Of a stretch of DNA of 64,000 bases, positions 7,136 to 61,913 are shown one piece after another; within the stretch, counting starts at the first letter, position 1, and each line of letters starts with the position of its first letter. The position numbers and the translations under genes were made by a program. The notes under the pieces are model-generated. The model worked only from the letters and a program-made list of their open reading frames with translations, did no database searches and was not told the origin of the DNA. Source of the stretch: Eledone cirrhosa (taxonomy: Eukaryota); NCBI GenBank assembly GCA_964016885.1, contig OZ024742.1, forward strand, positions 37,572,001 through 37,636,000. Reading direction: 5' to 3'.

Positions 7136-7695
7136 CATCAATACATACTGTGGGTTGTTGTTACAGTAGAGATGTTTACACTAGAAATACTAAAACATCA
7201 TATTTAACAACAGATCGAATTATTGTGTATCTTTCTCGCTATTTAGTTAAATAATGTTGAGAGCCGAATGGATCTGTGAATTTTAACAAACATAAAACAT
7301 ATTTCATCTTCCTTTGGTAAAATTCAATTAAATCAGAAGAAACTAAGTGATATATCATATAAGACATAACTAATGTATAAAATGATTAGCCGTACTTTCG
7401 TAAAAAGACTTCCCGATTGTGTATGTCCCGATTGTGTATGTTCCAAAAAGTATAGCAAGTGATTTGATACATTAACTATGATTGTATCTGTGAGCGTGTA
7501 TACAGTCATACTTTAAGCAAGATGAGGACTCCCGGCTTATATGTAGCCCTTCTTAACATCCTGCATTTCCCCACAAACATAGATTTCGTTTCTCCGTTTT
7601 AGCTCGCTCTTAACTTCCTATTCCCGTCCGGTAGATTTAACACTAATTGTCTGTTTAAAAAAAGTCACCATTTAGATTTAAACCTAAATTATTTT

Positions 7696-8860
7696 AAGGT
7701 CAGAGGCCGAGTGGCCAGGAGACCCGCATGGTTAAAGGATTTATAATGTTCTATCAACCTTCACCAGTCACCAGTTCCCCCACCACATTTCAAGGGAGTT
7801 ACCTTGTATATCCCCCTATCTCCCCTCCATCGTCGGATTCAGTCGAAATTAGCCTTAGTCACCCAACCACTCCCGTAACAGCTAGCTTGTCTCTAACGCC
7901 ACCGTGCTCCCATTGCCAGAGTTAATGCTGTGGTCGACCTCACTGATGTTGCCAATTCACCACCAAACTGTGCTCACTGCTTCCGTACCAATTGATATTT
8001 GAAGACCCTTGAATGTCATTTGTGTAGCTTAAACTATCACAGGAGCTGTGTTGGCATTACTAAGGTTCAAGCTGAAAGTTTCTTAAACTGGACCTGTAAC
8101 CAATGGCAATTCAGCAACAATTTACATTTGCAGGTCAGAACCTAGTTCTGACATTCAGATCTCTGTTGGGGATTTTGCTATTGCCCTCCAGTGCTTGTCT
8201 AAATTGAAACTCATCAACAGGATCCCAAAGGGAGCTTGGATCAGTTTCACCCGAGTTCTCTCCAAGCTGCTGAAAAACGTTTGCCTATCCAACAACATCT
8301 TGGATTGGCAGAAACTATTCTTGTTCCCCCCCCCCCCCAGTTTCTCTCCACATGTCTAACACAAAATCTTGATCCCTCACATCTTCTCTAAAATGGCAGT
8401 TCATGTTGTTTGTTTCAACCCTAACTACTGCTCATCTCAAGTTGGTGATCAACTTAGATTCAAACTAAGGCCATTAAAGCCAAATTCAATGAAGTTGACA
8501 TTAAAGGGGCTGTTTGCCTCCTCTCTGTCATCCCTCACCCAGTGCACTACTGATTCACGCAACCAACTGATAGTGAAACATCCTCCGGTTCCTCCGAATG
8601 ACCACTTACACTGGCCCGATCCACCAGGTTATTTACAACCTGTCTTCACCCCAGGAAGGTGATCATATCTTTTCCTGTGGATTCTGGTGCAGGAGTTGAT
8701 CTTCAATGATCTCAGCACCTCAAAATGGTGACCCCTTGATCTCTTGAAGAACCTCACCCAATTCATCAACCTATTCTCATCTAGAATGTCCTCCCTTATA
8801 TTCACCCCGTTCCTTGGGACTAAACTGTTTGGCTTCACAAAGCTCTACGGTGACCTCCAT
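7696..8860 (+). mobile_element. Degenerate CRE-clade non-LTR retrotransposon 5' fragment with PHD finger (cassette A)
   Basis: Broken reading frame gives a PHD-like CAHC..ECHLC..YHRSC..WTC (7969-8106), LINRIPKGAW...DWQKLFLFP, DIKGAVCLL...LIVKHPP, SFPVDSGAG..QHLK and FLGTKLFGFTKLYGD, which resembles the FFGA.L.AL.K..GG.RPI start of CRE RTs. Confidence 0.7.
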
Positions 8861-9606
8861 TATTTGGAATTATTTGTCAATTCCTAAGTTGTTATATTTC
8901 CTCAGAATTAGATACTATTAGGACAAAAATAAATACCACATAACACACAGACATCTTTGTCTTCATATAAACTAAATTTTACTGTTCATTTTTCATTGTC
9001 TTATCCTTCTTAAAACAAATCATTTTCTACATTATACACAATGGTTCAGCTGTTGGGCCCTGACTCTCCCTAATATAGTTACACTCTACTATCCCAAGTA
9101 TCGAGTAATCTGCTGAACAATGGTATTACTAGTTTAAAACTGCTAAAACACTGACCTCTCTCTCTCTCTATATATATATGTATATATATATATAATAAAA
9201 TGTTGTAGTTTGCTTGAAACATTGTGTATAGTGTGTAATGTAGAAAATAATTTGGTTAAAGAAGGATAGGACAATGTGAAATGGACAGTAAAATTTAGTT
9301 AAATGAAGGCAATGAAGATGTTTGTGTGATACCTGGTATTCATTTTCTACATTATACACTATACACAATGCTTCAAGCAAACTACAACATATATATAATT
9401 TTAAAAAAGGACAGATATAATATCAATAGTTTTATTTGTCTCATGCTTGAAAGGAAAAGGAAAGTTCACCATATTAGACATTAGTCCTTCATTAGAAGTA
9501 GAAGAAACACAAAGATGAGGTTCACAGATAGAAGATAAAAAGGGTGGGGGGCATGTGAGTGTGTGTTTTTGCATTTAATTCTTTGTGTGTTTGTGTTGGA
9601 GTGATG

Positions 9607-10258
9607 CATGTATGCCTGAGTGTATTAACATTGTATATATACCTGGTTTGTCCATGTATGGCTGGGTGTATTAACATCGTATATATACCTGGTTTGTCCA
9701 TGTATGGCTGGGTGTATTAACATTGTATATATACCTGGTTTATCCATGTATGGCTGGGTGTATTAACATCGTATATATACCTGGTTTATCCATATATGGC
9801 TGGGTGTATTAACATTGTATATATACCTGGTTTGTCCATGTATGGCTGGGTGTATTAACATTGTATATATACCTGGTTTGTCCATGTATGGCTGGGTGTA
9901 TTAACATTGTATATATACCTGGTTTGTCCATATATGGCTGGGTGTATTAACATTGTATATATACCTGGTTTGTCCATGTATGGCTGGGTGTATTAACATT
10001 GTATATATACCTGGTTTATCCATATATGGCTGAGTGTATTAACATTGTATATATACCTGGTTTGTCCATATATGGCTGAGTGTATTAACATTATATATAT
10101 ACCTGGTTTGTCCATATATGGCTGGATGTATTAACATCGTATATATACCTGGTCTGTCCATATATGGCTGGGTGTATTAACATTGTATATATACCTGGTT
10201 TATCCATATATGGCTGGGTGTATTAACATTGTATATATATACCAGGTTTATCCATGTA
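9607..10258. repeat. 46-bp satellite array 1, about 14 units
   Basis: Consensus ctggt(c/t)t(g/a)tccat(g/a)tatg(g/c)ctg(g/a)gtgtattaacattgtatatatac. Confidence 0.98.
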
Positions 10259-10842
10259 AACATACAAAAAAAAATGTGAAAAACACAACCTAACTCCAAA
10301 AGATGAAATAACAGGAGTAAAAATAAACATATCACGACCATTGCATCATCAATATATGATGCTAAGTAAGAATATGTGTGTACAAGTGTTGATATGTGTA
10401 TGTTTATCAGTGTGTTTCAGCTTTTTGTTGCATGTGTAATGTATCTGCATTTGTGAGTGTCATTTGGTGCATGTGTATTGGTTTGAACATAGATGGGACA
10501 TTAGTGTGGGGCACAGTGGGGAAAGTAGATTAGATGAAGAAGGGCTGCACATTCAGTCCATAGGGGTGGGGGCAATATATGCAGGAAAAAATGAACTTCA
10601 GTTCCCTCAGGTGGCTCGAGTTCATGGGTCCAGTGCAGGATGCAAGGCCAATTACTGTAGGGTGTCATGTGGAATAGCCGAGAGAGCGAAAATATTGGGC
10701 AACAGGAGATGGGTTGCCAACACAGATGTCCCAAAGATGTTCAATGAATCTGTCAACAACACAAGTCAAATTATTTGAGTTAAGTCTGCTTCAGCTCTCA
10801 CTATTTTTCTTAAATAAATCAAACTAATAAAGAATATATATC

Positions 10843-11970: not shown

Positions 11971-13140
11971 TCAGGATTTCTTACCTGTGTGAACAGGTTT
12001 ATGACGAGTTAAACTTTGATTATCAGCATATGATTTACCACAAATATCACAACTATATGGTCTCTCACCTGTGTGACTACGTATATGAAGTGTTAAATGA
12101 CCTCTCTGAGAGAAAGTTTTACCACAGGTATCACAGTGAAATGGCTTTTCACCTGTGTGAACACGTACATGTTGAGTTAAATGACCATTCTGAGAGAATG
12201 TTTTACCACAAGTATTACAATGGTATGGTTTCTCACCAGTGTGAGTACGTATATGTCTAGTTAGTCTATTATTGGTAGAGAATGTTTTTGTACAGATATC
12301 ACAGTGGTATGGTTTATCTCCAGTGTGAACTTGTACATGACTGGCCAAACTATTACATCCAGAGAAAGTTTTACCACAGCTATTGCAACGGAATGGTTTC
12401 TCACCACTGTGAATACGTTTGTGGTTAGTCATGTTTCCTCTCCCAGAGAACGTTTTTCCACAGATATCACAACGATGTGGTTTTTCCCTTGTGTGAACAG
12501 ATTTGTGAACCTTTAAATAAGAACTTCGTGAGAATGTTTTACCACAGACACCACACTGATATGGTTTTTCTCCTGTATGAATACGTATATGATGAGTTAA
12601 ACTATCAACCTGTGAGAATGATTTCCCACAGGTATCACAATGATATGGTTTCTCACCTGAGTGAGTATATTTGTGTCTACTCAAATGTCCAAATTGTGTG
12701 AATCTTCTACCACAAATATCACAGTGGTAAGGCTTTTCATCTGTATGAATACGTTTGTGATTCGTTAAAGTACTGCTTTCTGAAAAGGTTTTGTCACAGA
12801 TATCACATCGGTGTGCTTTTTTGCTTCTGTGAATACGTTTATGTCTAGTTAAATACGAATTCTGAGAGAATACTTTACCACAGATTAAACATTCAAAATC
12901 CTTCTGATCTGACTGAACACCTTTAGAATAAGAACGGTTTTTACCAGCTGTTTTGCTGTGCATTTTAGAATACTTCAGCTTTAAGCTTGTAAGAAGTACA
13001 TTATATTGTGTGAATGTTTTCTTATGGATGTCAAAGTGATATGATTTCTTCTGTGTATCTCCACATGTCTCATGAGATATGTCGCTAGGTTCAGACTTAA
13101 TTTCATCACAAACTGGTCTTTCACACACTTTATCCTCCAT
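11971..13140 (-). CDS. C2H2 zinc-finger protein, 11 fingers (copy 2, 389 aa)
   Basis: Intact ORF, paralog of copy 1, ends HTGKKS*. Minus-strand AATAAA at 11438-11443. Confidence 0.95.
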   Translation of the reverse strand: MEDKVCERPVCDEIKSEPSDISHETCGDTQKKSYHFDIHKKTFTQYNVLLTSLKLKYSKMHSKTAGKNRSYSKGVQSDQKDFECLICGKVFSQNSYLTRHKRIHRSKKAHRCDICDKTFSESSTLTNHKRIHTDEKPYHCDICGRRFTQFGHLSRHKYTHSGEKPYHCDTCGKSFSQVDSLTHHIRIHTGEKPYQCGVCGKTFSRSSYLKVHKSVHTREKPHRCDICGKTFSGRGNMTNHKRIHSGEKPFRCNSCGKTFSGCNSLASHVQVHTGDKPYHCDICTKTFSTNNRLTRHIRTHTGEKPYHCNTCGKTFSQNGHLTQHVRVHTGEKPFHCDTCGKTFSQRGHLTLHIRSHTGERPYSCDICGKSYADNQSLTRHKPVHTGKKS

Positions 13141-14248
13141 AATTTTCTTACAAATATTCTAAAAATGTTTGTTATTTTATTTTCAAATGTTTAACGCAGA
13201 ATAATAAATTCTCTGAAACTTCCCAACAGAATCTTCATGTTAAATGTCTCTATAATCTCAATTAAAATCAAAGTTACAGAGAACAGTTACTTGTATTCTC
13301 GATAATGTCAGTTTTTTGGTTTCAAAAACCTGACAAATTTCTTGACATATCTTGAATCAACAATTACCATCTGAATGTCACCACAAACTCTGAAAAAAAA
13401 AAATAAGGTAGAAAGTATAGAGAAAAGTTAACATAAAGATTATTAGTGATGGAGGAACTTGATTAGAGACATTGAATGTTAGATTAACAAAGATTAGAAA
13501 ATATCTACAGAAGAAAGACACAACAGTATGGATATGTAGTGTAAATATATAATGTGATGTGAGGATGATGGACTTTAGAATGATGAAAATAATGGGATAC
13601 ACTGAGGGAGAAGGAAAAGCAGAATGTTTTTAGTGTGAGTGTATATGATCAGATACCTCAGGTACTCCATATGCATGAAAAACTGTAGTTCAGTGAAATG
13701 AAAATGAAATTTACAGCTCCCACCTATGTAGGTTTAGCTGGTCTCCTATAGGTTGTATCTCAGAAGAAGTTTCTTGAGTGGTTTAATGATAGGGGCTCCA
13801 GGTCTATCATGAAAAGTAACATGAAATAAAGTGTCCTGCTCAAGAATAAAACATCCTGCCCAGTCCAATAATTGAATCCATGACACCCAAACCACTCAGT
13901 GAGTATTAACATATCAATGTAAAGAGCATTAAATATGCTATCACTAAATATATTAGCTAATGACTAATATAATTTTAACTGTTTCGGCAATGCTTGCTAA
14001 AAGATAGGAAAAAATGAGTATATTTTAATTAAAATGAAATAAAATATTGGCTTGTTAATTGGATCTTGAATTCTATATGTTGTTTATGTTTCATATATTC
14101 TTTAGTTTTATTATTTTGTTAATCCAGTGAATGTTCAGGTTAATGCTAAAAATATTCAGATGACATACTGGCCATACAGGCATTTGGTCAATACTCAGTG
14201 GATGATTCGGTTGGGCACAAAAAAGATTGAAATGAAAATGAGACATGC

Positions 14249-15385
14249 CTTAACTGAGCAGTGAAAACATATCTCTTGCTCTCAGTAGTCTGTTAGTCAG
14301 TGTCACTTTAACAAAAGAAGTGAAAACACACGTCTGGTCCTTAACATTCAGTTGGTCAATGTCGCCTTAGCACTGAAAATATGAGCTCAGCGTTCAGGTA
14401 TCTATTAGTGTCACTTTAGATGAGCAGTAAAAACACACATCTAGCCCTCAGCAGTCTGTGTCAACTTAGATGAGCATTGAAAACACACCCCGGGTCTTCA
14501 GCAGTTAGTTAGTCAGTATTGCGTTAGCTGAGCAGTGAAAAAACAGCTTTCACCCTAAGCAATTTTTTAACCAGTGTCACCTTAGTCAAACAATCAAAAC
14601 TCACCTCTGGCATTCAACAGCCTGTTAATCAGTGTTGCTTTAGCTGAGCAATGAAAACACACTTCTGGTTCTGAGCACTTTGTTAGTCAGTGTTACGTTA
14701 GCTGAGCAGTGGAAACTCACCTCTGGCCCTTGGCAGTCTGGTAGCTAATGTTGCCTTAGCTGAGAAATGAAAATGCAACTCTGGCACTGTGCAGCCAGAA
14801 GTCTGTAAGTCGGTGTTGCTTTACCTGAGCAATGAAAACTTATGTCTAGCTCTCAAAAGTCAGCAGCCTGTTAATTAAAGTCCCATTAGCTGAGCAGTGA
14901 AAACATGACTCTGGCCCTCAGCAGGCTTTTAGCGAGAGTTACCTTAGCTGAGAAGTAAAAACACACTTCTGGCCTACAACTGTCTGTTAATCAGTGATGC
15001 TTTAGCTGAAAGTTGAAAACACTCCTAGCACTAAACAATTAGTGCAGGTATGAGCAACCTTTTTTCGAGTAGTGGGTTGCATAGGATGTGGCTCATCATA
15101 AGGCAAACTGCACCACTAAAGAATCCATTTTGAAATTAGGTGTGTAGGTGTATCACTCACAAAGCCAAACGGGTCGCAGTTTGGCCATGACAGTATTAGT
15201 GTATACTTAACTGAGCAGTGAAAACATGCACCAGAGCCTCAGCTGTCTATTAGTCAGCGTCACATTAGCTGAGCAGTGAAAACACACCTCCATCTCTCAG
15301 TATTCAGCAGCCTGTTAGTAAGTGTCACATCAGATGAGCACTGCAAACACGCCTGGTCGTCAGTAGTTTGTTAATCAGTGTCATC
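14249..15385. repeat. Diverged 58-bp tandem repeat, about 17 units, intronic
   Basis: Approximate consensus ttagctgagcagtgaaaacacacctctggccctcagcagtctgttagtcagtgtcacc. Unit starts at 14524, 14582, 14640, 14698 and 14756 give period 58. Confidence 0.9.
15045..15193. mobile_element. hAT-type MITE, 149 bp, inside the 58-bp repeat (also 35611-35759, 49697-49845, 60557-60705)
   Basis: Imperfect TIRs caggtatgagcaac / gtttggccatgac(t/a)g; 8-bp TSD aattagtg/tattagtg. Confidence 0.7.
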
Positions 15386-15484
15386 CAGATAACCAGATGG
15401 AGAGATACTTCAGATGATTTTATCACAGCATATCCACTAACTTTTCTGGTGACCAGTGTACAGCTAGCCTTTCTTTCATTGTAT

Positions 15485-15604
15485 GGTTTCTGAATTAGGA
15501 ACAAAGTCAGCAATTTAATGGGAGGGGAAAGTCGATTATATCGACCCCGGTAGTTGACTGGCATCGAGTCGAAAGGATGAAAGGCAAAGTTAACCTCAGC
15601 AGGA
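15485..15604 (-). mobile_element. Deu/Nin-type SINE fragment (also 36051-36170, 50137-50256, 60997-61116)
   Basis: cgaaaggatgaaaggcaaagttaacctc is the reverse complement of the SINE core at 1625-1650. Confidence 0.7.
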
Positions 15605-16624
15605 TTATAACATATAAGAATAAAATGAGTCTGTGCTGTGTTCTGGAGAATTTATGTCAACGAACAGTTACTATTGGAACTAACATTCTGAATTTTAATT
15701 AACGTATCACTATCGTGAATTATCATGATACCGCTGTTCTGATGTTTTGTATGTGTAATTAAAGTATATATAATCAAACACGTTGAACACAAGATAAACA
15801 CACGTGTGAGCGTGTGTTTATGTAACACACGAAGATATTGTCAAAAGATTAACTATGGGGGTCTAAAATATAGGAAGATTCATTACAAACTGATTTGGTT
15901 GAAATGAAACTGTTGTCAAAGAAAGAATAACAATGGAGGGGAACATTAGGACACTATGTCACAATTAATAACAAATACATCAATGTTACCATGAATAGTG
16001 GTGTTAAATAGTTTATAAAATTCAACATTACTGGTGTTTACTTTTCAATAGAGATTAAAACAATGTAAAGAACAGCTCACCATCAATACATACTGTGGGT
16101 TGTTGTTACAGTAGAGATGTTTACACTAGAAATACTAAAACATCATATTTAACAACATATCGAATTACTGTGTATCTTTCTCGCTATTTAGTTAAATAAT
16201 GTTGAGAGCCGAATGGATATGTGAATTTTAACAAACATAAAACATATTCCATCTTCCTTTGGTAAAATTCAATTAAATCAGAAGAAACTAAGTGATATAT
16301 CATATAAGACATAACTAATGTATAAAATGATTAGCCGTGCTTTCGTAAAAAAACTTCCCGATTGTGTATGTTCTGAGAAGGATTTTCCAAAAAGTATAGC
16401 AAGTGATTTGATACATTAACTATGATTGTATCTGTGAGCGTGTATACAGTCATACTTTAAGCAAGATGCGGACTGTAGCCGGACTGCAAGATGCGGATAT
16501 GTAGCCCTTCTTAACATCCTGCATTTCCCCACAAACATATATTTCATTTCTCCGTTTTAGCTCCCTCTCAGCTTCCTATTCCCGTCCGGTAGATTTAACA
16601 CTAATTGTCTGTTTAAAAAAATGT

Positions 16625-18330
16625 CAGTTCCCCCACCACATTCCAAGGGAGCTAACTTGTAACCCCCTATCTCCCCTCAATCGTCGGATTCAGTCGAAAT
16701 TAACCTTATTCACCCCACCACTCCCTAACAGCTAGCTTGTCTCTCACGCCACCGTCATCACATTGCCAGAGTTAATGCTGAGTACTCCCCCACTCTAGCT
16801 CTGTCGTTAACCTAATTCTATCGTCGACCTCTCTGATGTTGCCAATTCACCACCAAACTGTGCTCACTGCTTCCGTACCAATTGATATTTGAAGACCCTT
16901 GAATGTCATTTGTGTAGCTTAAACTATCACAGGAGCTGTGTTGGCATTACTAAGGTTCAAGCTGAAAGTTTCTTAAACTGGACCTGTAACCAATGGCACT
17001 TCAGCAACAATTTACATTTGCAGGTCAGAACCTAGTTCTGACATTCAGATCTCTGTTGGGGATTTTGCTATTGCCCTCCAGTGCTTGTCTAAATTGAAAC
17101 TCATCAACAGGATCCCAAAGGGAGCTTGGATCAGTTTCACCCGAGTTCTCTCCAAGCTGCTGAAAAACGTTTGCCTATCCAACAACATCTTGGATTGGCA
17201 GAAACTATTCTTGTTCCCCCCCAGTTTCTCTCCACATGTCCATATAACGGCTGCGAAGATTCGAAACCTATCTGAGCTTTCCCGCCTCTGGGACAAGCTG
17301 TGGTAACTTGTTTACGCTCAAGAGACTAACCCCTTGGGAGAGGCTAAACACAGGTCAGAGGTGTTTACGCCTGACAGAAAATAGGTCAGAGGATATATCT
17401 ACCTTTCTGACTTGTTTACGCTAGGCAAACTAATCCCTTGGGAGAGACTAACCAAAGTTCAGAGGATATATCTATCCTTCTAACTTCAACTCTTATAAAT
17501 ACAGGGGTTGTTCACGCCCCGACAGAAAAGAAGTGAGATACAGACAAGACAAGTTGTTTTTACAAGCTCTCGTCATGAAAAACCAGCCTGCCACTTATTC
17601 TCACCTTCCTGGCTGATCGCTGACTCCTGCAATACAAATAAGTAAATATACTGATACGCCGCACACACGCATTCATAGTGAGTCCAGCATTTGTACACGC
17701 ACCATTCATTTCTGTTTACACATTATAATCGTATTCTGTGATACTTGAATTTACGTGGCTCGAAGAGCCACCAAATTATTGTATGAATATTTTGTGTCAA
17801 TTATTTTATCATTCAATATTCAAATTGAATATTGTTGTAATAAAATAAAGTTTGTAACAACACAATCCTGGTATTTTTCTTTACATCGAAACCACCATAC
17901 CAACAGTTACATCCATCCATCCACTTATCGTTACAACCACACATAATATTCCGTTACATCCAACACAAAATCTTGATCCCTCACATCTTCTCTAAAATGG
18001 CAGTTCATGTTTTTTGTTTCAACCCTAACTACTGCTCATCTCAGGTTGATGTTCAACTTAGTTCCAAACTAAGGCTGTTAAAGCCAAATTCAAAGAATTT
18101 GACATTAAAGGGGCTGTTCGCTTCCTCTCCTCTCGGTCATCCCTCGCCCAGTGCACTACAGATTCACTCAAACAACTGATAGTGAAACATCCTCTGGTTC
18201 CTCCGAATGACCTCACCCAATTCATCAACCTATTCTCATCCGAGAATGTCCTCCCTTATATTCACCCTGTTCCTTGGGGCTAAACTGTTTGGCTTCACAA
18301 AGCTCTACGGTGACCTCCACCCCATCTTTC
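16625..18330 (+). mobile_element. CRE-clade fragment (cassette B), interrupted by a solo LTR
   Basis: Near-identical to 7696-8860, with different deletions. Confidence 0.7.
17243..17958 (+). mobile_element. Solo LTR, 716 bp
   Basis: Termini TATAACGG...CCGTTACA; 4-bp TSD TCCA; empty site atgtccaacac in cassettes C and D; TATAAATA at ~17494 and AATAAA at ~17839-17849. Confidence 0.85.
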
Positions 18331-18796
18331 GATTTAAGTTGGCTAACCTCAAGCAACTTTTAAAAAGCCTCGAAGCCATTGAGTCTCACCAAGGTTTTTT
18401 ATACTTAGGAATTATTTGTCAATTCCTAATATACTATTAGGACAAAAATAAATACCAGATAACACACAGACAGAAGATGTTTGTGTGATACCTGGTATTC
18501 ATTTTCTACATTGTGTGATACCTGGTATTCATTTTCTACATTATACACTATACACAATGCTTCAAGCAAACTACAACATATATATAGTTTTAGAAAAGGA
18601 CAGATATAATATCAATTTGTCTCATGCTTGAAAGGAAAAGGAAAGTTCACCATATTAGACATTAGTCCTTCATTAGAAGTAGTAGAAACACAAAGATGAG
18701 ATTCACAGATAGAAGATAAAAAGGAGGGGGGGGGGGAGCATGTGAGTGTGTGTTTTTGCATTTAATTCTTTGTGTGTTTGTGTTGTTGGAGTGATG

Positions 18797-21700
18797 CATG
18801 TATGGCTGGGTGTATTAACATTGTATATATACCTGGTCTGTCCATGTATGGCTGAGTGTATTAACATTGTATATATACCTGGTCTGTCCATGTATGGCTG
18901 GGTGTATTAACATTGTATATATACCTGGTTTATCCATATATGGCGGGGTGTATTAACATCGTATATATACCTGGTTTGTCCATGTATGGCTGGGTGTATT
19001 AACATTGTATATATACCTGGTCTGTCCATATATGGCTGGGTGTATTAACATTGTATATATACCTGGTCTGTCCATGTATGGCTGGGTGTATTAACATTGT
19101 ATATATACCTGGTCTGTCTATATATGGCTGGGTGTATTAACATTGTATATATACCTGGTCTGTCCATATATGGCTGGGTGTATTAACATTGTATATATAC
19201 CTGGTCTGTCCATGTATGGCTGGGTGTATTAACATTGTATATATACCTGGTCTGTCCATATATGGCTGGGTGTATTAACATTGTATATATACCTGGTTGT
19301 CCATGTATGGCTGGGTGTATTAACATTGTATATATACCTGGTTTGTCCATGTATGGCTGGGTGTATTAACATTGTATATATACCTGGTCTGTCCATGTAT
19401 GGCTGGGTGTATTAACATCGTATATATACCTGGTCTGTCCATATATGGCTGGGTGTATTAACATTGTATATATACCTGGTCTGTCCATGTATGGCTCTGT
19501 GTATTAACATTGTATATATACCTGATCTGTCCATGTATGGCTGGGTGTATTAACATTGTATATATACCTGGTTTATCCATGTATGGCTGGGTGTATTAAC
19601 ATTGTATATATACCTGGTTTATCCATATATGGCTGGGTGTATTAACATTGTATATATACCTGGTCTGTCCATGTATGGCTGGGTGTATTAACATTGTATA
19701 TATACCTGGTCTGTCCATATATGGCTGGGTGTATTAACATTGTATATATACCTGGTCTGTCCATGTATGGCTGGGTGTATTAACATTGTATATATATCTG
19801 GTCTGTCCATGTATGGCTGGGTGTATTAACATTGTATATATACCTAGTTTGTCCATATATGGCTGGGTGTATTAACATTGTATATATATCTGGTCTGTCC
19901 ATATATGGCTGGGTGTATTAACATTGTATATATACCTGGTCTGTCCATATATGGCTGGGTGTATTAACATTGTATATATACCTGGTTTATCCATATATGG
20001 CTGAGTGTATTAACATTGTATATATACCTGGTCTGTCCATATATGGCTGGGTGTATTAACATTGTATATATACCTGGTTTATCCATATATGCCTGGGTGT
20101 ATTAACATTGTATATATACCTGGTTTATCCATATATGGCTGGGTGTATTAACATTGTATATATACCTGGTTTGTCCATGTATGCCTGGGTGTATTAACAT
20201 TGTATATATACCTGGTCTGTCCATGTATGGCTGAGTGTATTAACATTGTATATATACCTGGTCTGTCCATGTATGGCTGGGTGTATTAACATTGTATATA
20301 TACCTGGTCTGTCCATATATGGCTGAGTGTATTAACATTGTATATATACCTGGTTTATCCATATATGGCTGGGTGTATTAACATTGTATATATACCTGGT
20401 TTATCCATATATGGCTGGGTGTATTAACATTGTATATATACCTGGTTTGTCCATGTATGCCTGGGTGTATTAACATTGTATATATACCTGGTCTGTCCAT
20501 GTATGGCTGAGTGTATTAACATTGTATATATACCGGGTCTGTCCATGTATGTCTGGGTGTATTAACATTGTATATATACCTGGTTTATCCATATATGGCT
20601 GGGTGTATTAACATTGTATATATACCTGGTCTGTCCATATATGGCTGAGTGTATTAACATTGTATATATACCTGGTCTGTCCATATATGGCTGGGTGTAT
20701 TAACATTGTATATATACCTGGTCTGTCCATGTATGGCTGGGTGTATTAACATTGTATATATACCTGGTCTGTCCATATATGGCTAGGTGTATTAACATTG
20801 TATATATACCTGGTTTATCCATATATGGCTGGGTGTATTAACATTGTATATATACCTGGTCTGTCCATGTATGGCTGGGTGTATTAACATTGTATATATA
20901 CCTGGTCTGTCCATGTATGGCTGGGTGTATTAACATTGTATATATACCTGGTCTGTCCATGTATGCCTGGGTGTATTAACATTGTATATATACCTGGTCT
21001 GTCCATGTATGCCTGGGTGTATTAACATTGTATATATACCTGGTTTATCCATATATGGCTGAGTGTATTAACATTGTATATATACCTGGTCGGTCCATGT
21101 ATGCCTGGGTGTATTAACATTGTATATATATCTGGTCCGTCCATGTATGCCTGGGTGTATTAACATCGTATATATACCTGGTTTATCCATGTATGGCTGG
21201 GTGTATTAACATTGTATATATACCTGGTTTATCCATATATGGCTGGGTGTATTAACATTTTATATATACCTGGTCTGTCCATGTATGGCTGGGTGTATTA
21301 ACATTGTATATATACCTGGTTTGTCCATATATGGCTGGGTGTATTAACATTGTATATATACCTGGTTTATCCATGTATGGCTGGGTGTATTAACATTGTA
21401 TATATACCTGGTTTGTCCATATATGCCTGGGTGTATTAACATTGTATATATACCTGGTCTGTCCATGTATGGCTGAGTGTATTAACATTGTATATATACC
21501 TGGTCTGTCCATGTATGGCTGAGTGTATTAACATTGTATATATACCTGGTCTGTCCATGTATGGCTGAGTGTATTAACATTGTATATATACCTGGTCTGT
21601 CCATGTATGCCTGGGTGTATTAACATTGTATATATACCTGGTCTGTCCATGTATGGCTGAGTGTATTAACATTGTATATATACCTGGTCTGTCCATGTAT

Positions 21701-43519: not shown

Positions 43520-44002
43520 TTATTTTATGTCTGCTTTTCATACTGGCATTGGTTGGTCGCTACTGCCTGAGTCAGTTCCTAACTGGAGTTACTGCTCTCC
43601 TAGAGAGGTGATTGAAATAGGTCTCGTTAATGCATTCCAAATGTTGGCATTGTTTCTACAGCGAGATGTCCTTCTTAACACATTACAGAATGTATTGATT
43701 ATATTTTGTCATAACAATTCTAAAGAGGTTGTTTTATCCATTGCAAGGTTAGAGAGAGTTTTTCACTGCATGAAGTCTTTGTCCTTTCAAAGTGAACATT
43801 ACTGAGAGATATTTGATTGAGAGTGATAGCCAAGAGTTGAAAGAGAAAAGAGTGAGAGAATAGATCTGAGTATGTAGGGGAAACATGAGTGATAGTATGG
43901 TAGGGAAACAGAGGAGTAGAGGTAGACACATGTTAATTGTTGGTAGTGGATTGGTAGAGTAGAAAACAGCATGAGCAATGTAATGGACTACCCATAGGGA
44001 TA

Positions 44003-52041: not shown

Positions 52042-52252
52042 TACGATATATTAACAAATGGAAACTATATTTATAAAACCATATTTATTTCATTATACAT
52101 ATTTCAAGGACATCAAGTTAAATTATGGTGTGCTTTCATCAGATAAAATATAATATAGAGCAGTTTTATAAATAAATATTGACATACCCTTAAAGAATGC
52201 GACCATTTCTGTTGGAAGCTCCCGGATAGTGGGGTTATATCCGGGAGCTTCC
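52042..52252. mobile_element. Truncated copy of the foldback element (left arm, loop, 15 bp of right arm)
   Basis: Matches 62893-63106, then switches to cassette-start sequence. Confidence 0.85.
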
Positions 52253-52354: not shown

Positions 52355-53506
52355 AAGGTCAGAGGCCAAGTGGCCAGGGAACCCTTACGGTTAAAGGATT
52401 TAGTATCGTTCTATCAACCTTCACCCGTGCCCAGTACCCCAACCATATTCCAAGGGAGCTAACTTGTAACCCTCTATCTCCCCTCAATCGTCGGATTCAG
52501 TCGAAATTAGCCTTATTCACCCAACCACTCCCTAACAGCTAGCTTGTCTCTAACGCCACCGTCCTCACATTGCCAGTGTTAATGCTGAGTACTCCCCCCC
52601 TCTAGCTCTGTCGTTAACCTAATTCTATCGTCGACCTCACTGATGTTGCCAATTCACCGCAAAAAACTGTGCTCACTGCTTCCGTACCAATTGATATTTG
52701 AAGACCCTTGAATGTCATTTGTGTAGCTTAAACTATCACAGGAGCTGTGTTGGCATTACTAAGGTTCAAGCTGAAAGTTTCTTAAACTGGACCTGTAACA
52801 AATGGCAATTCAGCAACAATTTACATTTGCAGGTCAGAACCTAGTTCTGACATTCAGATCTCTGTTGGGGATTTTGCTATTGCCCTCCAGTGCTTGTCTA
52901 AATTGAAATTCATCAACAGGATCCCAAAGGGAGCTTGGATCAGTTTCACCCGAGTTCTCTCCAAGCTGCTGAAAAACGTTTGCCTATCCAACATCTTGGA
53001 TTGGCAGAAACTATTCTTGTTCACCCTAGTCTCTCTCCACATGTCCAACACAAAATCTTGATCCCTCACATCTTCTCTAAAATGGCAGTTCATGTTGTTT
53101 GATTCAACCCGAACTATTGCTTATCTCAGGTTGCCAAATTCAATGAATTTGACATTAAAGGGGCTGTTAGCCTCCTCTCCTCTCTGTCATCCCTCGCCCA
53201 GTGCACTACTGATTCACTCAACCGGCTGATAGTGAAACATCTTCTGGTTCCTCCGATCCACCAGGTTATTTACAACCTGTCTTCACCCCAGGAAGGTGAT
53301 CATATCCTTTCCTGTGGATTCTGGTGCAGGGGTTGATCTTCAACGATCTCAGCACCTCAAAGATGATGACTCCTTGAGCCCTTGAAGAACCTCACCCAAT
53401 TCATCAACCTATTCTCATCCGAGAATGTCCTCCCTTATATTCACCCTGTTCCTTGGGGCTAAACTGTTTGGCTTCACAAAGCTCTATGGTGACCTCCACC
53501 CCATCT
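52355..53506 (+). mobile_element. CRE-clade fragment (cassette D)
   Basis: Paralog of 7696-8860, extending to LFLGAKLFGFTKLYGDLHPI. Confidence 0.7.
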
Positions 53507-54379
53507 TTCGATTTAAGTTGGCTAACCTCAAGCAACTTTTAAAAAGCCTCGAAGCCATTGAGCCTCATCAAGGTTTTTTATTCTTAGGAATTATTTGTCA
53601 ATTCCTAAGTTGTTATATTTCCTCAGATTTATATACTATTAGGACAAAAATAAATACCAGATAACACACAGACATCTTTGTTGTCTTCATATAAACTAAA
53701 TTTTACTGTTTATTTTACATTGTCTTATCCTTCTTAACACAAATCATTTTCTACATTATACACAATGGTTCAGCTGTTGGGCCCTGACTCTCCCTCCCTA
53801 ATATAGTTACACTCTACTATCCCAAGTATCGAGTAATCTGCTGAACAATGGTATTACTAGTTTAAAACTGCTAAAACACTGACCTCTTTCTCTCTCTCTC
53901 TTTCTCTCTCCATATATATATATATATAATAAAATGTTGTAGTTTACTTGAAACATTGTGTATAGTGTATAATGTAGAAAATAATTTGGTTAAAGAAGGA
54001 TAGGACAATGTGAAATGGACAGTAAAATTTAGTTAAATGAAGGCAATGAAGATGTTTGTGTGATACCTGGTATTCATTTTCTACATTATACACTATACAC
54101 AATGCTTCAAGCAAACTACAACATATATATAATTTTAAAAAAGGACAGATATAATATCAATAGTTTTATTTGTCTCATGCTTGAAAGGAAAAGGAAAGTT
54201 CACCATATTAGACATTAGTCCTTCATTAGAAGTAGTAGAAACACAAAGATGAGGTTCACAGATAGAAGATAAAAAGGAGGGGGGGGGGCATGTGAGTGTG
54301 TGTTTTTGCATTTAATTCTTTGTGTGTTTGTGTTGTTGGAGTGATGCATGTATGCCTGAGTGTATTAACATTGTATATA

Positions 54380-55987
54380 TTTAACGAAGGGTTAAAAATG
54401 AAAAGTTAGAATGGTTATATGTAGTTATTAGAAATGATTATAACAAGAATAATAGTTGTAAAGGTATAATAGGAATAGGTGTAATAACGAAAATATAAAG
54501 AATAAATGATTTTATTTTATTGGCCATGTTCGATATGCAGAAAAGGGACTGGCATAAATTCTATAAAATGCACACAATGCAGATCCTGGGTACACAAGAG
54601 ATGTAGCGTGATAGCAGGCAAACTAACAGGTAGGGAGAAATATGTATGCAGTAGATGTACAGGGAAATTAGACAGTAGAAGTCGCATTGATAGACACATT
54701 TTTCAAATGCAGGAGGGTGCTATAGAAGTGGTGGATAGCTTTTGGTACCTAGGAAATCAGAGTAGCATGAGAGGAGGGTGTTCCGGGGCCATAGTATCTA
54801 GAATAAGGACTGGTTGGAAGAAGTTTAGGGAGCTGCTGACGAAGAAGCGTTTCTCCCTGCGTACGAAAGGCCGGTTGTATGATGCCTGTGTGAGGAGTAA
54901 GATGCTGCATGGTAGTGAGACATGGGCAGCAACTGCAGAGGATATGCGACGGCTGGAGAGAAATGAGGCAAGCATGCTCCGTTGGATGTGCAGTGAAAAT
55001 GTGTGTGAACGACCCAGCATGAATGTGTTGAGAGAGAAACTGTGTCTGAGAGGGATAGAATGTAGTGTATGGGAGAGGAGACTGAGGTGGTATGGACATG
55101 TGATGCGCATGGAGGATGACCGATGGGTGAAGAAGTGCCAGGAAATGCCAGTTGAAGGAAGACGTGGTAGAGGTAGACCACGAAAAACATGGGCGGAGGT
55201 GATGAGAACAGACCTCAGATCGTTGAAGCTCATGGTGGAGATGACGAAGGACCGTGACGAGGGAGAGATGCTGTGCTGAATAAGACCCGTCCCACCCTTG
55301 CCAGCAGGGAAGAGCAGATGTAAAATGATGATGATGATGATGATGATATAGTTTACTTCACGTGAATCAATTAAAAAGTACATATAAAACAGTTACCAAG
55401 AGTTGTTATTGTTTCTGATGTGAGGCTGTTGTAATCTGTTGTTGTTGTTGGTGTGAAAGCAGCGAGCAACAGATAATTGTTGTTGTTGTTGGAATTTGGA
55501 GACCTTGGTAGTAGTTGTGTGACCGTGTTAGTAAAAGAGAGAGATATGGTATGTATATCTCGGAATGGTCTGTAGTAACTTTGAAACACTGTGGCCTGCA
55601 GACGGCGGTGAATCTTCCACATTTGTATTCTGTAGTAGTAGGGTTTCAATCGCTCTGGGTGTATCTGTAGACCTCATGGGGTCTGTTGAATAGTGGTGAA
55701 TCTTTACATAGCTAGTTGTGTATCCTAGCGCTTCGATATCTCTGTGTCTGTAGACCCTTTGGGTCTATTGATAGCAGTAAATCCTTACATAGCTTGTTAT
55801 AGGTGTAATGATCCGATGTATCTCCTATAGTGGGATAATAGCACAGGCTTTATATAACTATCGCTTCCTGTCCCCCACCTTGAGGGGATAGTCAACAAAT
55901 CAACCTGTCTGCACCAAAAGGGTGTTGACCCAGAATTTAACCTTTAGGTATCACCCAAAGTTCAAGGCGCGGACAGATTTCGTTACA
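54380..55987 (-). mobile_element. Solo LTR with nested RTE (duplicate of 40951-42553)
   Basis: Same termini and same insertion point in the first satellite unit. Confidence 0.75.
54520..55348 (+). mobile_element. 5'-truncated RTE LINE; frame still open (ORF 54506-55279)
   Basis: Same motifs as 41091-41916 plus in-frame GRRGRGRPRKTW; (GAT)n tail. Confidence 0.92.
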
Positions 55988-56840
55988 TATATATCTGGTT
56001 TGTCCATGTATGGCTGGGTGTATTAACATTGTATATATACCTGGTCTGTCCATATATGGCTGGGTGTATTAACATTGTATATATATCTGGTTTGTCCATA
56101 TATGGCTGGGTGTATTAACATTGTATATATACCTGGATCGTCCATATATGGCTGGGTGTATTAACATTGTATATAGACGTTGTTTATCCATATATGGCTG
56201 GGTGTATTAACATTGTATATATACCTGGTTTGTCCATATATGGCTGGGTGTATTAACATTGTATATATACCTGGTTTATCCATATATGGCTGGGTGTATT
56301 AACATTGTATATAAATCTGGTTTGTCCATATATGGCTGGGTGTATTAACATTGTATATATACCTGGTTTATCCATATATGGCTGGGTGTATTAACATTGT
56401 ATATATACCTGGTCTGTCCATATATGGCTGGGTGTATTAACATTGTATATATACCTGGTTTATCCATATATGGCTGGGTGTATTAACATTGTATATATAT
56501 CTGGTTTGTCCATATATGGCTGGGTGTATTAACATTGTATATATACCTGGTCTGTCCATATATGGCTGGGTGTATTAACATTGTATATATATCTGGTTTG
56601 TCCATATATGGCTGGGTGTATTAACATTGTATATATACCTGGTCTGTCCATATATGGCTGGGTGTATTAACATTGTATATAGATGTTGTTTATCCATATA
56701 TGGCTGGGTGTATTAACATTGTATATAGATGTTGTTTATCCATATATGGCTGGGTGTATTAACATTGTATATAGACCTGGTTTATCCATATATGGCTGGG
56801 TGTATTAACATTGTATATATATACCAGGTTTATCCATGTA
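55988..56840. repeat. 46-bp satellite array 4, about 18 units (plus partial unit 54347-54379)
   Basis: Same unit; almost all are the ccatatatgg variant. Confidence 0.97.
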
Positions 56841-57523: not shown

Positions 57524-58693
57524 TCAGGATTTCTTACCCGTGTGAACATTTTTATGACGAGTTAAACTGTGATTATCAGCATATGATTTACCACAAATAT
57601 CACAACTATATGGTCTCTCACCTGTGTGACTACGTATGTGAAGTGTTAAATGACCTCTCTGAGAGAATGTTTTACCACAGGTATCACAGTGAAATGGTTT
57701 TTCACCTGTGTGAACACGTACATGTTGAGTTAAATGACTATTCTGTGAGAATGTTTTACCACAGGTATTACAATGGTATGGTTTCTCACCAGTGTGAGTA
57801 CGTATATGTCCAGTTAGTCTATCACTGGTAGAGAATGTTTTTGTACAGATATCACAGTGGTATGGTTTATCCCCAGTGTGAACTTGTACATGATTGGCTA
57901 AACTATTACATCCAGAGAAAGTTTTACCACAGCTATCGCAACGGTATGGTTTCTCACCACTGTGAATACGTTTGTGGTTAGTCATGTTTCCTCTCCCAGA
58001 GAACGTTTTCCCACAGATATCACAACGATGTGGTCTTTCCCTTGTGTGAACAGATCTGTGAACCTTTAAATAAGAACTTCGTGAGAATGTTTTACCACAA
58101 ACACCACACTGATATGGTTTTTCTCCTGTATGAATACGTATATGATGAGTTAAACTATTAAGCTGTGTGAATGATTTCCCACAGGTATCACAATGATATG
58201 GTTTCTCACCTGAGTGAGTATTTTTGTGTCTACTCAAATGTCCAAATTGTGTGAATCTTCTACCACAAATATCACAGTGGTAAGGCTTTTCATCAGTATG
58301 AATACGTTTGTGATTCGTTAAAGTACTGCTTTCTGAAAAGGTTTTGTCACAGATATCACATCTGTGTGCTTTTTTGCTTCTGTGAATACGTTTATGTCTA
58401 GTTAAATACGAATTCTGAGAGAATACTTTACCACAGATTAAACATTTAAAATCCTTCTGATCTGACTGAACACCTTTAGAATAAGAACGGTTTTTACCAG
58501 CTGTTTTGCTGTGCATTTTAGAATACTTCAGCTTTAAGCTTGTAAGAAGTACATTATATTGTGTGAATGTTTTCTTATGGATGTTAAAGTGATATGATTT
58601 CTTCTGTGTATCTCCACATGTCTCATGAGATATGTCGCTAGGTTCAGACTTAATTTCATCACAAACTGGTCTTTCACACACTTTATCCTCCAT
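57524..58693 (-). CDS. C2H2 zinc-finger protein, 11 fingers (copy 5, 389 aa)
   Basis: Intact ORF paralogous to the other copies. Confidence 0.95.
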   Translation of the reverse strand: MEDKVCERPVCDEIKSEPSDISHETCGDTQKKSYHFNIHKKTFTQYNVLLTSLKLKYSKMHSKTAGKNRSYSKGVQSDQKDFKCLICGKVFSQNSYLTRHKRIHRSKKAHRCDICDKTFSESSTLTNHKRIHTDEKPYHCDICGRRFTQFGHLSRHKNTHSGEKPYHCDTCGKSFTQLNSLTHHIRIHTGEKPYQCGVCGKTFSRSSYLKVHRSVHTRERPHRCDICGKTFSGRGNMTNHKRIHSGEKPYRCDSCGKTFSGCNSLANHVQVHTGDKPYHCDICTKTFSTSDRLTGHIRTHTGEKPYHCNTCGKTFSQNSHLTQHVRVHTGEKPFHCDTCGKTFSQRGHLTLHIRSHTGERPYSCDICGKSYADNHSLTRHKNVHTGKKS

Positions 58694-59787
58694 AATTTTC
58701 TTACAAATATTCTAAAAATGTTTGTTATTTTCAAATGTTTAACGCAGAATAATAAATTCTCTGAAACTTCCCAACAGAATCTTCATGTTAAATGTCTCTA
58801 TAATCTCAATTAAAATCAAAGTTACAGAGAACAGTTACTTGTATTCTCGATAATGTCAGTTTTCTGGTTTCAAACCCTGACAAATTTCTTGATATATCTT
58901 GAATCAACAATTACCATCTGAATGTCACCACAAACTCTGAAAAAAAAATATAAGGTAGAGAAAAGTTAACATAAAGATTATTAGTGATGGAGGAACTTGA
59001 TTAGAGACATTGAATGTTATATTAACAAAGATTAGAAAATATCTACAGAAGAAAGACACAACAGTATGGATATGTAGTGTAAATATATAATGTGATGTGA
59101 GGATGATGGACTTTAGAATGATGAAAATAATGGGATACACTGAGGGAGAAGGAAAAGCAGAATGTTTTTAGTGTGAGTGTATATGATCAGATACCTCAGG
59201 TACTCCATATGCATGAAAAATTGTAGTTCAGTGAAATGAAAATGAAATTTACAGCTCCCACCTATGTAGGTTTAGCTGGTCTCCTATAGGTTGTATCTCA
59301 GAAGAAGTTTCTTGAGTGGTTTAATGATAGGGGCTCCAGGTCTATCATGAAAAGTAACATGAAATAAAGTGTCCTGCTCAAGAATAAAACATCCTGCCCA
59401 GTCCAATAATTGAATCCATGACACCCAAACCACTCAGTGAGTATTAACATATCAATGTAAAGAGCATTAAATATGCTATCACTAAATATATTAGCTAATG
59501 ACTAATATAATTTTAACTGTTTCGGCAATGCTTGCTAAAAGATAGGAAAAAATGAGTATATTTTAATTAAAATGCAATAAAATATTGGCTTGTTAATTGG
59601 ATCTTGAATTCTATATGTTGTTTATGTTTCATATATTCTTTAGTTTTATTATTTTGTTAATCCAGTGAATGTTCAGGTTAATGCTAAAAATATTCAGATG
59701 ACATACTGGCCATACAGGCATTTGGTCAATACTCAGTGGATGATTCGGTTGGGCACAAAAAAGATTGAAATGAAAATGAGACATACC

Positions 59788-60897
59788 TTAACTGAGCAGT
59801 GAAAACATATCTCTTGCTCTCAGTAGTCTGTTAGTCAGTGTCACTTTAACAAAAGAAGTGAAAACACACGTCTGGTCCTTAACATTCAGTTGGTTAATGT
59901 CGCCTTAGCACTGAAAATATGAGCTCAGCGTTCAGGTATCTATTAGTGTCACTTTAGATGAGCAGTAAAAACACATCTAGCCCTCAGCATTGAAAACACA
60001 CCCCGGGTCTTCAGCAGTTAGTTAGTCAGTATTGCGTTAGCTGAGCAGTGAAAAAACAGCTTTCACCCTAAGCAATTTTTTAACCAGTGTCACCTTAGTC
60101 AAACAATCAAAACTCACCTCTGGCATTCAACAGCCTGTTAATCAGTGTTGCTTTAGCTGAGCAATGAAAACACACTTCTGGTTCTGAGCACTTTGTTAGT
60201 CAGTGTTACGTTAGCTGAGCAGTGGAAACTCACCTCTGGCCCTTGGCAGTCTGGTAGCTAATGTTGCCTTAGCTGAGAAATGAAAATGCAACTCTGGCAC
60301 TGTGCAGCCAAAGTCTGTAAGTCGGTGTTGCTTTACCTGAGCAATGAAAACTTATGTCTAGCCCTCAAAAGTCAGCAGCCTGTTAATTAAAGTCCCATTA
60401 GCTGAGCAGTGAAAACATGACTCTGGCCCTCAGCAGGCTTTTAGCGAGAGTTACCTTAGCTGAGAAGTAAAAACACACTTCTGGCCTACAACTGTCTGTT
60501 AATCAGTGATGCTTTAGCTGAAAGTTGAAAACACTCCTAGCACTAAACAATTAGTGCAGGTATGAGCAACCTTTTTTCGAGTAGTGGGTTGCATAGGATG
60601 TGGCTCATCATAAGGCAAACTGCACCACTAAAGAATCCATTTTGAAATTAGGTGTGTAGGTGTATCACTCACAAAGCCAAACGGGTCGCAGTTTGGCCAT
60701 GACTGTATTAGTGTATACTTAACTGAGCAGTGAAAACATGCACCAGAGCCTCAGCTGTCTATTAGTCAGCGTCACATTAGCTGAGCAGTGAAAACACACC
60801 TCCGTCTCTCAGTATTCAGCAGCCTGTTAGTAAGTGTCACATCAGATGAGCACTGCAAACACGCCTGGTCGTCAGTAGTTTGTTAATCAGTGTCATC
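59788..60897. repeat. 58-bp diverged tandem repeat (cassette D)
   Basis: Almost identical to 48928-50037. Confidence 0.88.
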
Positions 60898-61913
60898 CAG
60901 ATAACCAGGTGGCGAGATACTTCAGATGATTTTATCACAGCATATCCACTAACTTTTCTGGTGACCAGTGTACAGCTAGCCTTTCTTTCATTGTATGGTT
61001 TCTGAATTAGGAACAAAGTCAGCAATTTAATGGGAGGGGAAAGTCGATTATATCGACTCCGGTAGTTGACTGGCATCGAGTCGAAAGGATGAAAGGCAAA
61101 GTTAACCTCAGCAGGATTATAACATATAAGAATAAAATGAGTCTGTGCTGTGTTCTGGAGAATTTATGTCAACGAACAGTTACTATTGGAACTAACTGAA
61201 TTTTAATTAACGTATCACTATCGTGAATTATCATGATACCGCTGTTCTGATGTTTTGTATGTGTAATTAAAGTATATATAATCAAACACATTGAACACAA
61301 GATAAACACACGTGTGAGCGTGTGTTTGTGCAAACACACGAAGATATTGTCAAAAGATTAACTATGGGGGTCTAAAATATAGGAAGATTCATTACAAACT
61401 GATTTGGTTGAAATGAAACTGTTGTCAAAGAAAGAATAACAATGGAGGGGAACATTAGGACACTATGTCACAATTAATAACAAATACATCAATGTTACCA
61501 TGAATAGTGGTGTTAAATAGTTTATAAAATTCAACATTACTGGTGTTTACTTTTCAATAGAGATTAAAACAATGTAAAGAACAGCTCACCATCAATACAT
61601 ACTGTGGGTTGTTGTTACAGTAGAGATGTTTACACTAGAAATACTAAAACATCATATTTAACAACATATCAAATTACTGTGTATCTTTCTCGCTATTTAG
61701 TTAAATAATGTTAAGAGATAAATGGATTTGTGGATATTTACTCACATTAGGTATCTCTCATGTGCTTATTTAACGAATAATACTGACGACACAGAAGAAA
61801 TTTAGTCATATACATTGCTACAGACATAACTAATGCATCGAATCATCAGCCGTTTTTCGTATAAGACTTTTAATTCTCTTACCTAACGGTGTACCGAACG
61901 AAGTACTGTAGGC

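What the first reader, a model, noticed from the sequence alone, without database searches (positions are those of the whole stretch)
7590..61900. Co-amplified ZNF + satellite + CRE/PHD cassette repeated four times
Seen: cassettes at about 7590-16550, 16551-39002, 39003-52252 and 52253-61900 each carry one C2H2 gene and its own copy of the same 46-bp satellite 0.7-3.8 kb past the stop codon. Array size ranges from about 7 to 284 units. A PHD-bearing CRE fragment also lies head-to-head with the preceding gene's 5' end. Known: cephalopods have large KRAB-less C2H2 clusters reported to be interspersed with satellite DNA. Inference: either the satellite drives unequal crossing-over that amplifies the genes, or the ZNFs bind this linked satellite (11-12 fingers span about 33-36 bp of a 46-bp unit), making a protein-plus-target module with tunable site dosage.
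Basis: partly seen in the sequence, partly recalled or inferred. Interest (0 to 1): 0.75.

Follow-up and report, generated by a model that had tools for sequence, protein, structure and literature searches.

The report
Zinc-finger tandem array carrying hitchhiking minisatellite
Five near-identical zinc-finger genes sit head to tail with a 46-base repeat between each pair, and that repeat matches a single-copy piece of an old scattered repeat element, so it likely swelled in place and was copied along as cargo rather than being the genes' binding target or the main cause of their duplication.

Summary
The cassette is real; the proposed protein-plus-target module is not supported. Five C2H2 paralogs (one frameshifted) are separated by four copies of one spacer holding a dead PHD/RT retrotransposon fragment and a 46-bp array (14, 284, ~7, ~19 units). 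All 140 genome-wide exact matches of a 33-base core lie in this window. The monomer is a single-copy internal piece of an old dispersed repeat (seen in 11 of 12 aligned loci); a related 50-bp array on another contig has no zinc-finger array within 50 kb. The sister four-gene cluster has no such satellite. Two mapped junctions lie outside the arrays: a crossover in the 5' exon and a 3-bp microhomology join inside a long AT-rich palindrome. One divergence step falls across an array, so arrays may serve as occasional exchange sites. A published recognition code gave no match above shuffles (0 of 32 tests; weak method). Base-contacting residues vary more than the rest of the fingers (13/44 vs 28/226). 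One run shows the predicted splice joint. Earlier notes of this scan describe the same arrangement, with other satellites, elsewhere in this genome. A new member of a known kind.

The parts
4233..5501 (-). G0: intact C2H2 ORF, 422 aa, 81-aa N-terminal region plus 12 fingers; fifth paralog, no array on its 3' side
5923..7135 (-). G0 intron in the 5' UTR (predicted from the same donor/acceptor contexts as G2)
   Evidence: inferred
7700..8860 (+). Dead RLE-type (CRE-like) non-LTR retrotransposon fragment: PHD, pre-RT region, RT start, internal deletion
9385..10750 (.). Old dispersed repeat of unknown class that hosts array 1 in place of a single monomer
9607..10258 (+). 46-bp array A1, 14.1 units
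11971..13140 (-). G1: intact ORF, 389 aa, 11 fingers (PF00096, 11 stretches)
13390..16080 (-). G1 intron (predicted), with a degenerate 58-bp tandem repeat at 14465-15009
16162..16204 (.). Crossover or conversion boundary in the 5' exon: to its right copies 0/1/2 differ from 3/4 at 46 sites, to its left all five are nearly identical
16625..18436 (+). Second copy of the retrotransposon fragment, interrupted by a private insertion at about 17243-17958
18797..31867 (+). 46-bp array A2, about 284 units, 66 unit variants
33590..34680 (-). G2: frameshifted paralog, one finger deleted; three of its frameshifts are shared by contigs of run X4
34924..38544 (-). G2 intron; a contig of run X4 joins 34923 to 38545 (ends CT..AC on +, i.e. 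GT-AG on -)
39110..40334 (+). Third copy of the retrotransposon fragment
40918..42851 (+). Array A3 (34 bp plus 6.5 units) split by a 1.6-kb insertion (40952-42552) with short inverted ends and a LINE-like piece inside
43984..46098 (+). LINE RT fragment private to unit 3 (PF00078), dispersed elsewhere
46665..47834 (-). G3: intact ORF, 389 aa, 11 fingers
52042..52252 (.). Left half of the palindrome, cut at the unit 3/4 junction (52252/52253, 3-bp microhomology)
52360..53729 (+). Fourth copy of the retrotransposon fragment (PHD at 52695-52844)
54347..56837 (+). Array A4 (34 bp plus 18.5 units) split by the same 1.6-kb insertion (54381-55986), which carries a second PHD
57524..58693 (-). G4: intact ORF, 389 aa, 11 fingers; about 1 kb of 3' flank deleted at 57240/57241
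62895..63282 (.). Whole AT-rich palindrome (arms about 190 bp) in the right flank; the unit 3/4 duplication breakpoint (63106) lies just past its loop

Best explanation
This is a local tandem array of five C2H2 zinc-finger genes whose four spacers each hold the same dead retrotransposon fragment and a 46-bp minisatellite, which likely grew in place from one monomer of an old dispersed repeat and was likely copied along as cargo. Inferred history: two older paralogs with one spacer between them; an unequal crossover in their shared 5' exon made a third gene and second spacer; a further homologous duplication (exchange point uncertain, possibly in an array) and a microhomology-joined duplication broken at a palindrome gave five genes. 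Arrays then changed length on their own. Gene conversion among finger arrays, with relaxed or diversifying selection at base-contacting residues, likely lets the paralogs drift towards different DNA targets.
For: Shown: 140 of 140 exact core matches in the genome lie in the window. The monomer sits once, between the same flanks, in 11 of 12 aligned dispersed loci, none with a finger array. A related 50-bp array on C7 has the same left flank about 3 kb away and no finger array in 50 kb. The sister cluster on C3 at 71.83-71.86 Mb has 4 finger arrays and no minisatellite passing the filter in 80 kb. Junctions mapped at 16162-16204 (46 sites switch) and 52252/52253. The retrotransposon fragments share one internal deletion, so they are one insertion copied. 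Finger arrays are more diverged than introns (G1 vs G3 33/920 vs 11/2195) and mosaic (59 of 190 informative-site pairs incompatible). Contact positions vary at 13/44 vs 28/226 other finger positions, p=0.0096.
Against: Unit 1 vs 2 divergence drops across the array (11/277 vs 6/1142, p<0.001; 4/400, p=0.015), and unit 1 vs 3 less so (p=0.033 with the long flank); the other four pairs show no step. The order of duplications is not resolved because identity is patchy along the unit. Binding was tested only by a weak code without a positive control. Contact-site pN (0.075) only equals finger-body pS (0.074) for G1 vs G3, so positive selection is not shown. The junction at 52252 and the 13-kb array were not checked with reads.
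Confidence: 0.8

Rival explanations
1. The satellite is the main recombination substrate: unequal crossing-over between arrays amplifies the genes.
For: Divergence step across the array for unit 1 vs 2; arrays share identical units (12 of 17 A4 units occur in A3, 8 of 13 A1 units in A2); array length varies about 40-fold.
Against: Two mapped junctions are outside the arrays; the commonest informative split (units 1+2 vs 3+4) is the same on both sides of the array; the sister cluster expanded with no satellite; one ancestral array cannot duplicate its neighbours (inference).
Confidence: 0.1
2. The zinc-finger proteins bind the linked 46-mer (or the dispersed parent element it came from), so the arrays act as a tunable sink or a cis silencing platform.
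For: Tight linkage. Octopus ZNF motifs as a set are predicted to be enriched in TEs (PMC10547256, section 6). Two unlinked sister-cluster proteins gave nominal p=0.007-0.037 on one unit variant (5 of 56 control tests), which does not survive correction for 88 tests.
Against: 0 of 32 tests for the four linked proteins below p=0.05 (range 0.082-0.945); recognition helices differ among paralogs while arrays are alike; the largest array flanks the frameshifted gene.
Confidence: 0.07
3. Part of the array (units 3 and 4, or the 13-kb satellite) is an assembly artefact such as two haplotypes placed in tandem.
For: G3 and G4 introns differ at only 3 of 2151 sites; a palindrome lies at the junction; no read-level check was made.
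Against: The junction joins two non-homologous sequences with no gap; units 3 and 4 differ by a 2.1-kb LINE and a 1-kb deletion; run X4, a different sample code, carries both G2-specific and G4-specific alleles; A2 has no long perfect higher-order repeat.
Confidence: 0.03

Closest known systems
Beta-satellite blocks in the human 19p12 zinc-finger cluster (Eichler et al. 1998, PMID 9724325; paper not held, title seen only in the reference list of PMC8125562; content recalled)
   Same: Tandem C2H2 genes interspersed with satellite blocks that travel with the duplicated unit.
   Different: Here a private 46-bp minisatellite derived from a dispersed repeat, five genes, no KRAB hit in Pfam; beta satellite is a widespread 68-bp family.
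Coleoid cephalopod C2H2 expansions and clusters (PMC9068888 and PMC12513265, passages read; the 70-90-bp repeat enrichment in Albertin et al. 2015 is recalled, paper not held)
   Same: Lineage-specific, clustered multi-finger C2H2 genes.
   Different: Neither main text contains the word 'satellite' (0 occurrences each); this locus gives breakpoint-level detail. The organism of this window was not determined here.
Tandem repeats born from parts of transposable elements (review PMC6947457, passages read)
   Same: A mini/satellite unit matching an internal piece of a dispersed element.
   Different: The parent element here is unclassified, and the array was then multiplied by segmental duplication.
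Young TE-targeting ZNF families such as zebrafish FiNZ-ZNFs (PMC10547256, passages and section 6 read)
   Same: Recent paralogs with variation concentrated at base-contacting residues and a conserved N-terminal region.
   Different: No target, no repressor function and no dN/dS above 1 shown here.

Membership tests
Tandem multi-finger C2H2 ZNF cluster | Five or more tandem C2H2 fingers in one ORF | tested here: met
   11-12 fingers; PF00096 11 stretches in G1
Tandem multi-finger C2H2 ZNF cluster | Adjacent paralogs in the same orientation | tested here: met
   five - strand copies, N-terminal 82 aa 99-100% identical
Tandem multi-finger C2H2 ZNF cluster | Transcribed and spliced | tested here: inconclusive
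   one contig of run X4 joins across the predicted GT-AG intron; the run's library kind is not on record
KRAB/SCAN/ZAD/BTB-type ZNF | Known N-terminal effector domain | tested here: not met
   no Pfam family above cutoff for the 82-aa N-terminus; no homolog at E<=0.001 among 2 candidates
CRE-clade non-LTR retrotransposon | RT of non-LTR type | tested here: met
   relative L077: PF00078 E=1e-15, best PDB hit R2 protein 9nl2 E=4e-4; window fragments align to it at E down to 1e-23
CRE-clade non-LTR retrotransposon | C-terminal restriction-like endonuclease, no APE | tested here: inconclusive
   no APE family hit in the two L077 ORFs scanned; an RLE-like PD..D..K stretch is seen by eye (motif recalled, no Pfam hit); the window copies lack this part
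CRE-clade non-LTR retrotransposon | Placement in the CRE clade on an RT tree | not tested
   no reference RT set on hand; the clade name rests on recalled motifs
TE-derived minisatellite | Monomer occurs singly inside a dispersed element with the same flanks | tested here: met
   11 of 12 aligned loci
TE-derived minisatellite | Parent shown to be a transposon of a named class | not tested
   ends and target-site duplications of the parent were not defined
Satellite-binding ZNF / linked protein-target module | Protein binds the repeat | tested here: inconclusive
   prediction only: 0 of 32 tests above shuffles; such predictions matched 11 of 236 measured motifs in PMC10547256
Satellite-mediated duplication | Duplication junctions inside the satellite | tested here: not met
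   both mapped junctions are outside; one further event may lie in an array

The most novel reading that the evidence does not exclude
The subfamily evolved to bind the old dispersed element, and one of its target monomers, trapped beside the gene, was amplified into a private array that soaks up or recruits the protein, so that gene dosage and site dosage co-evolve in one self-regulating cassette; the satellite-bearing read-through RNA of G4 and the transcribed pseudogene G2 would be part of that loop.
Probability: 0.06. Interest if true: 0.75.

Novelty: new member of a known kind. Interest (0 to 1): 0.27.

Why it matters
As it stands it is a clean worked example of how a zinc-finger cluster grows: two junctions can be mapped to the base or to a 40-bp window, the satellite's parent can be found, and fingers diversify faster than the introns around them. 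It argues that zinc-finger/satellite association in such clusters can arise by hitchhiking. It would matter much more if the proteins proved to bind the 46-mer, which is directly testable with four proteins and one oligonucleotide.

Tried and rejected
Satellite unit against 200 kb of flanking DNA: no hit. Binding prediction with Kaplan 2005 Table S2 (positions -1, 3, 6 only; 11 finger arrays with 9 or more uninterrupted fingers; 2 of 66 unit variants; 400 shuffles each; no positive control): nothing for linked proteins. A by-eye match of fingers 8-11 to the minus strand of the commonest unit, from a recalled code, did not hold in that test. No RNA holder was listed on record. Run X5 (organism B) has contigs about 90% alike to parts of the gene and to the right flank, but that flank is a dispersed repeat, so it says nothing on conserved linkage. 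RAD-seq run X6 gave only repeat-derived reads. The unit 1 vs 2 value of 7.6% in the finger array is an alignment artefact of G2's missing finger and was not used; sites 9183-9216 are a misalignment. Paper searches: (0 hits) found no description of this locus or of a linked ZNF-plus-target satellite module; most subscription papers are not searched, and Albertin 2015 and Eichler 1998 were not held. PMC9977147 passages did not help classify the retrotransposon; PMC4005693 supplement 3 was seen in part 1 of 28 only and not used.
Full report
Observation. A self-comparison with the arrays masked shows four direct copies of one unit at 85-99% identity. The 46-bp arrays have 14.1, 283.8, 6.5 and 18.5 units and lie 1713, about 1729, 3814 and 687 bp past the stop codons. 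There are five paralogs, all on the minus strand: G0 (12 fingers), G1, G3, G4 (11 fingers each) and G2, which has several frameshifts and lacks one finger. G0 has no array on its 3' side, so the structure is five genes with four spacers. G2, the broken gene, sits beside the largest array.

Gene structure. All five copies share one donor and one acceptor context. A contig of run X4 joins 34923 to 38545 with CT..AC ends, the predicted GT-AG intron on the minus strand. X4's kind is not on record; I infer RNA from this joint. X4 contigs match G2 exactly over 33322-33701, including its 2-base deletion, and share two more G2 frameshifts, but not the extra base at the start codon. Another X4 contig carries G4's alleles at six of six listed sites and runs into the satellite. 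Contigs show neither strand nor level.

Is the satellite dispersed? An exact 33-base core has 140 matches in the 3.0-Gb genome and 140 in the window. A looser DNA search (9 of 10 candidates scored, a lower bound) added a 68-72% alike array on C7 and three short single hits. The C7 array has a 50-bp unit, lies among unrelated 29-47-bp arrays, and has no finger array in the 50 kb fetched.

Where the satellite came from. Both flanks of the array are dispersed repeats. I fetched 14 flank-hit loci and aligned 11 of them plus L026; L060, L068 and L071 were left out because they had no hit over the monomer position. In 11 of the 12 aligned loci a single monomer-like stretch lies where the window has its array (one of them partial; L064 lacks it). 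Ten loci have no finger motif and two have one. The C7 array has the same left flank about 3 kb away. So the unit is a piece of an old (65-77% identical) unclassified repeat that likely expanded in place, at least twice independently. This test was prompted by earlier scan notes.

The retrotransposon fragment. It carries a PHD and is dispersed at 67-82% identity in the longer matches. A better preserved relative, L077, has an 875-aa frame with an RT (PF00078; best solved relative the R2 protein) and a downstream frame with an RLE-like stretch seen by eye. The window copies align to it, and copies 2-4 show the same jump from residue 431 to 662, with copy 1 breaking at the same place. They are one dead insertion copied four times. 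The CRE label is plausible but rests on recalled motifs.

Does the subfamily need a satellite? The N-terminal region found 13 matches (150 of 370 candidates scored): five here, four at C3 71.83-71.86 Mb, two at C3 41.74-41.76 Mb and two single ones. The 80 kb around the sister cluster hold four finger arrays and the same 5' exon element but no tandem repeat passing my filter (period 12 or more, 3.5 or more copies, score 120 or more); the visible part of the BLAST output, which was cut, showed no hit to the spacer other than microsatellites.

Junctions. First, in the 5' exon all five copies are nearly identical up to about 16160 (G1 numbering); beyond 16162-16204, copies 0, 1 and 2 differ from 3 and 4 at 46 sites. 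This is the mark of an unequal crossover or conversion between two older paralogs (inference). Second, units 3 and 4 share a 1.6-kb insertion in their arrays and are 97.5-97.7% identical. Their join at 52252/52253 fuses the right flank to the spacer start with 3 bp of microhomology, just past the loop of a palindrome with arms of about 190 bp that is whole at 62895-63282. Neither junction is in an array. Against this reading, unit 1 vs 2 divergence falls from 11/277 left of the array to 6/1142 right of it (p<0.001), unit 1 vs 3 gives p=0.033 with the long flank, and the other four pairs show no step. An exchange in or near an array for one event is therefore possible. Identity is patchy along the whole unit, so the order of events is inferred, not shown.

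Do the proteins bind the 46-mer? Using Kaplan et al. 2005 Table S2 (PMC1183507, supplement read), the four linked proteins scored two common unit variants no better than 400 shuffles: 0 of 32 tests below 0.05. Among seven unlinked proteins, 5 of 56 tests were below 0.05, all from two sister-cluster genes on one variant; none survives correction for 88 tests. No positive control was run, and such predictions matched only 11 of 236 measured motifs in PMC10547256, so this is weak. The paralogs also diverge where they read DNA: 13 of 44 contact positions vary against 28 of 226 other finger positions (p=0.0096) and 2 of 81 N-terminal positions. Finger arrays are 6-14 times more diverged than introns, synonymous sites included, and are mosaic (59 of 190 site pairs incompatible; 8 sites shared by G0 and G1 only). 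That points to gene conversion plus relaxed or diversifying selection; contact pN only equals finger-body pS for G1 vs G3, so positive selection is not shown.

Comparison with what is known. Clustered C2H2 expansions in coleoids are described (PMC9068888, PMC12513265; passages). Satellite blocks inside a zinc-finger cluster are known from human 19p12 (Eichler 1998; title only). TE-derived tandem repeats are a known class (PMC6947457; passages). Earlier notes of this scan report the same arrangement with 40- and 82-bp satellites elsewhere in this genome; they are unchecked and are not counted as support.

Verdict. The best reading is a local tandem duplication with a hitchhiking, repeat-derived minisatellite (0.8). 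Satellite as main driver gets 0.1, protein-plus-target module 0.07, artefact 0.03. New member of a known kind; interest 0.27.

Noticed in passing
window 33322-34680: The frameshifted gene G2 beside the 13-kb array has its broken alleles present in run X4, which also holds the splice joint; it may be a transcribed pseudogene that could encode only the N-terminal region.
   Followed up: partly
window 56797-57241: An X4 contig with G4-specific alleles runs from the 3' flank into array A4; G4 has lost about 1 kb of 3' flank with two AATAAA sites, so read-through into the satellite is possible (G3 and G4 also gained a nearer AATAAA).
   Followed up: partly
window 62895-63282: AT-rich palindrome with arms of about 190 bp and a short loop; half of it marks the unit 3/4 breakpoint.
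   Followed up: partly
window 12895-13140 and paralogs: The 81-aa N-terminal region has no nucleotide difference between G0 and G1 while their finger arrays differ by about 7%; no Pfam family; conserved at 44-83% in other clusters. Candidate unnamed effector region, or a recent conversion tract.
   Followed up: partly
window 14465-15009, 35032-35575, 49126-49661, 59986-60521: A second, degenerate 58-bp tandem repeat (9 units) in the introns of G1-G4, constant in length, unlike the 46-bp arrays.
   Followed up: no
window 40952-42552, 54381-55986: 1.6-kb insertion with 7-bp inverted ends in an AT run of the satellite, holding a LINE-like piece with its own PHD finger.
   Followed up: partly
G000:C7:82993997-83030802 (L021-L025): Five unrelated minisatellite arrays (47, 30, 44, 50 and 29 bp) within 37 kb and no finger array; the 50-bp one is related to the window's 46-mer.
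   Followed up: partly
G000:C3:71826290-71867800 (L031-L035): Sister tandem cluster of four paralogs (at least one broken) with the same 5' exon and no satellite; two of its proteins gave the only nominal predicted matches to the 46-mer.
   Followed up: partly
L077:1832-5012: Fairly well preserved RLE-type non-LTR element (875-aa frame with RT, separate C-terminal frame), a member of a large dispersed family (1262 candidates).
   Followed up: partly
G000:C3:37481000-37564000 (L011-L020): Four further finger arrays (6-12 fingers) on the + strand within 91 kb left of the window, only distantly related to the five paralogs.
   Followed up: no
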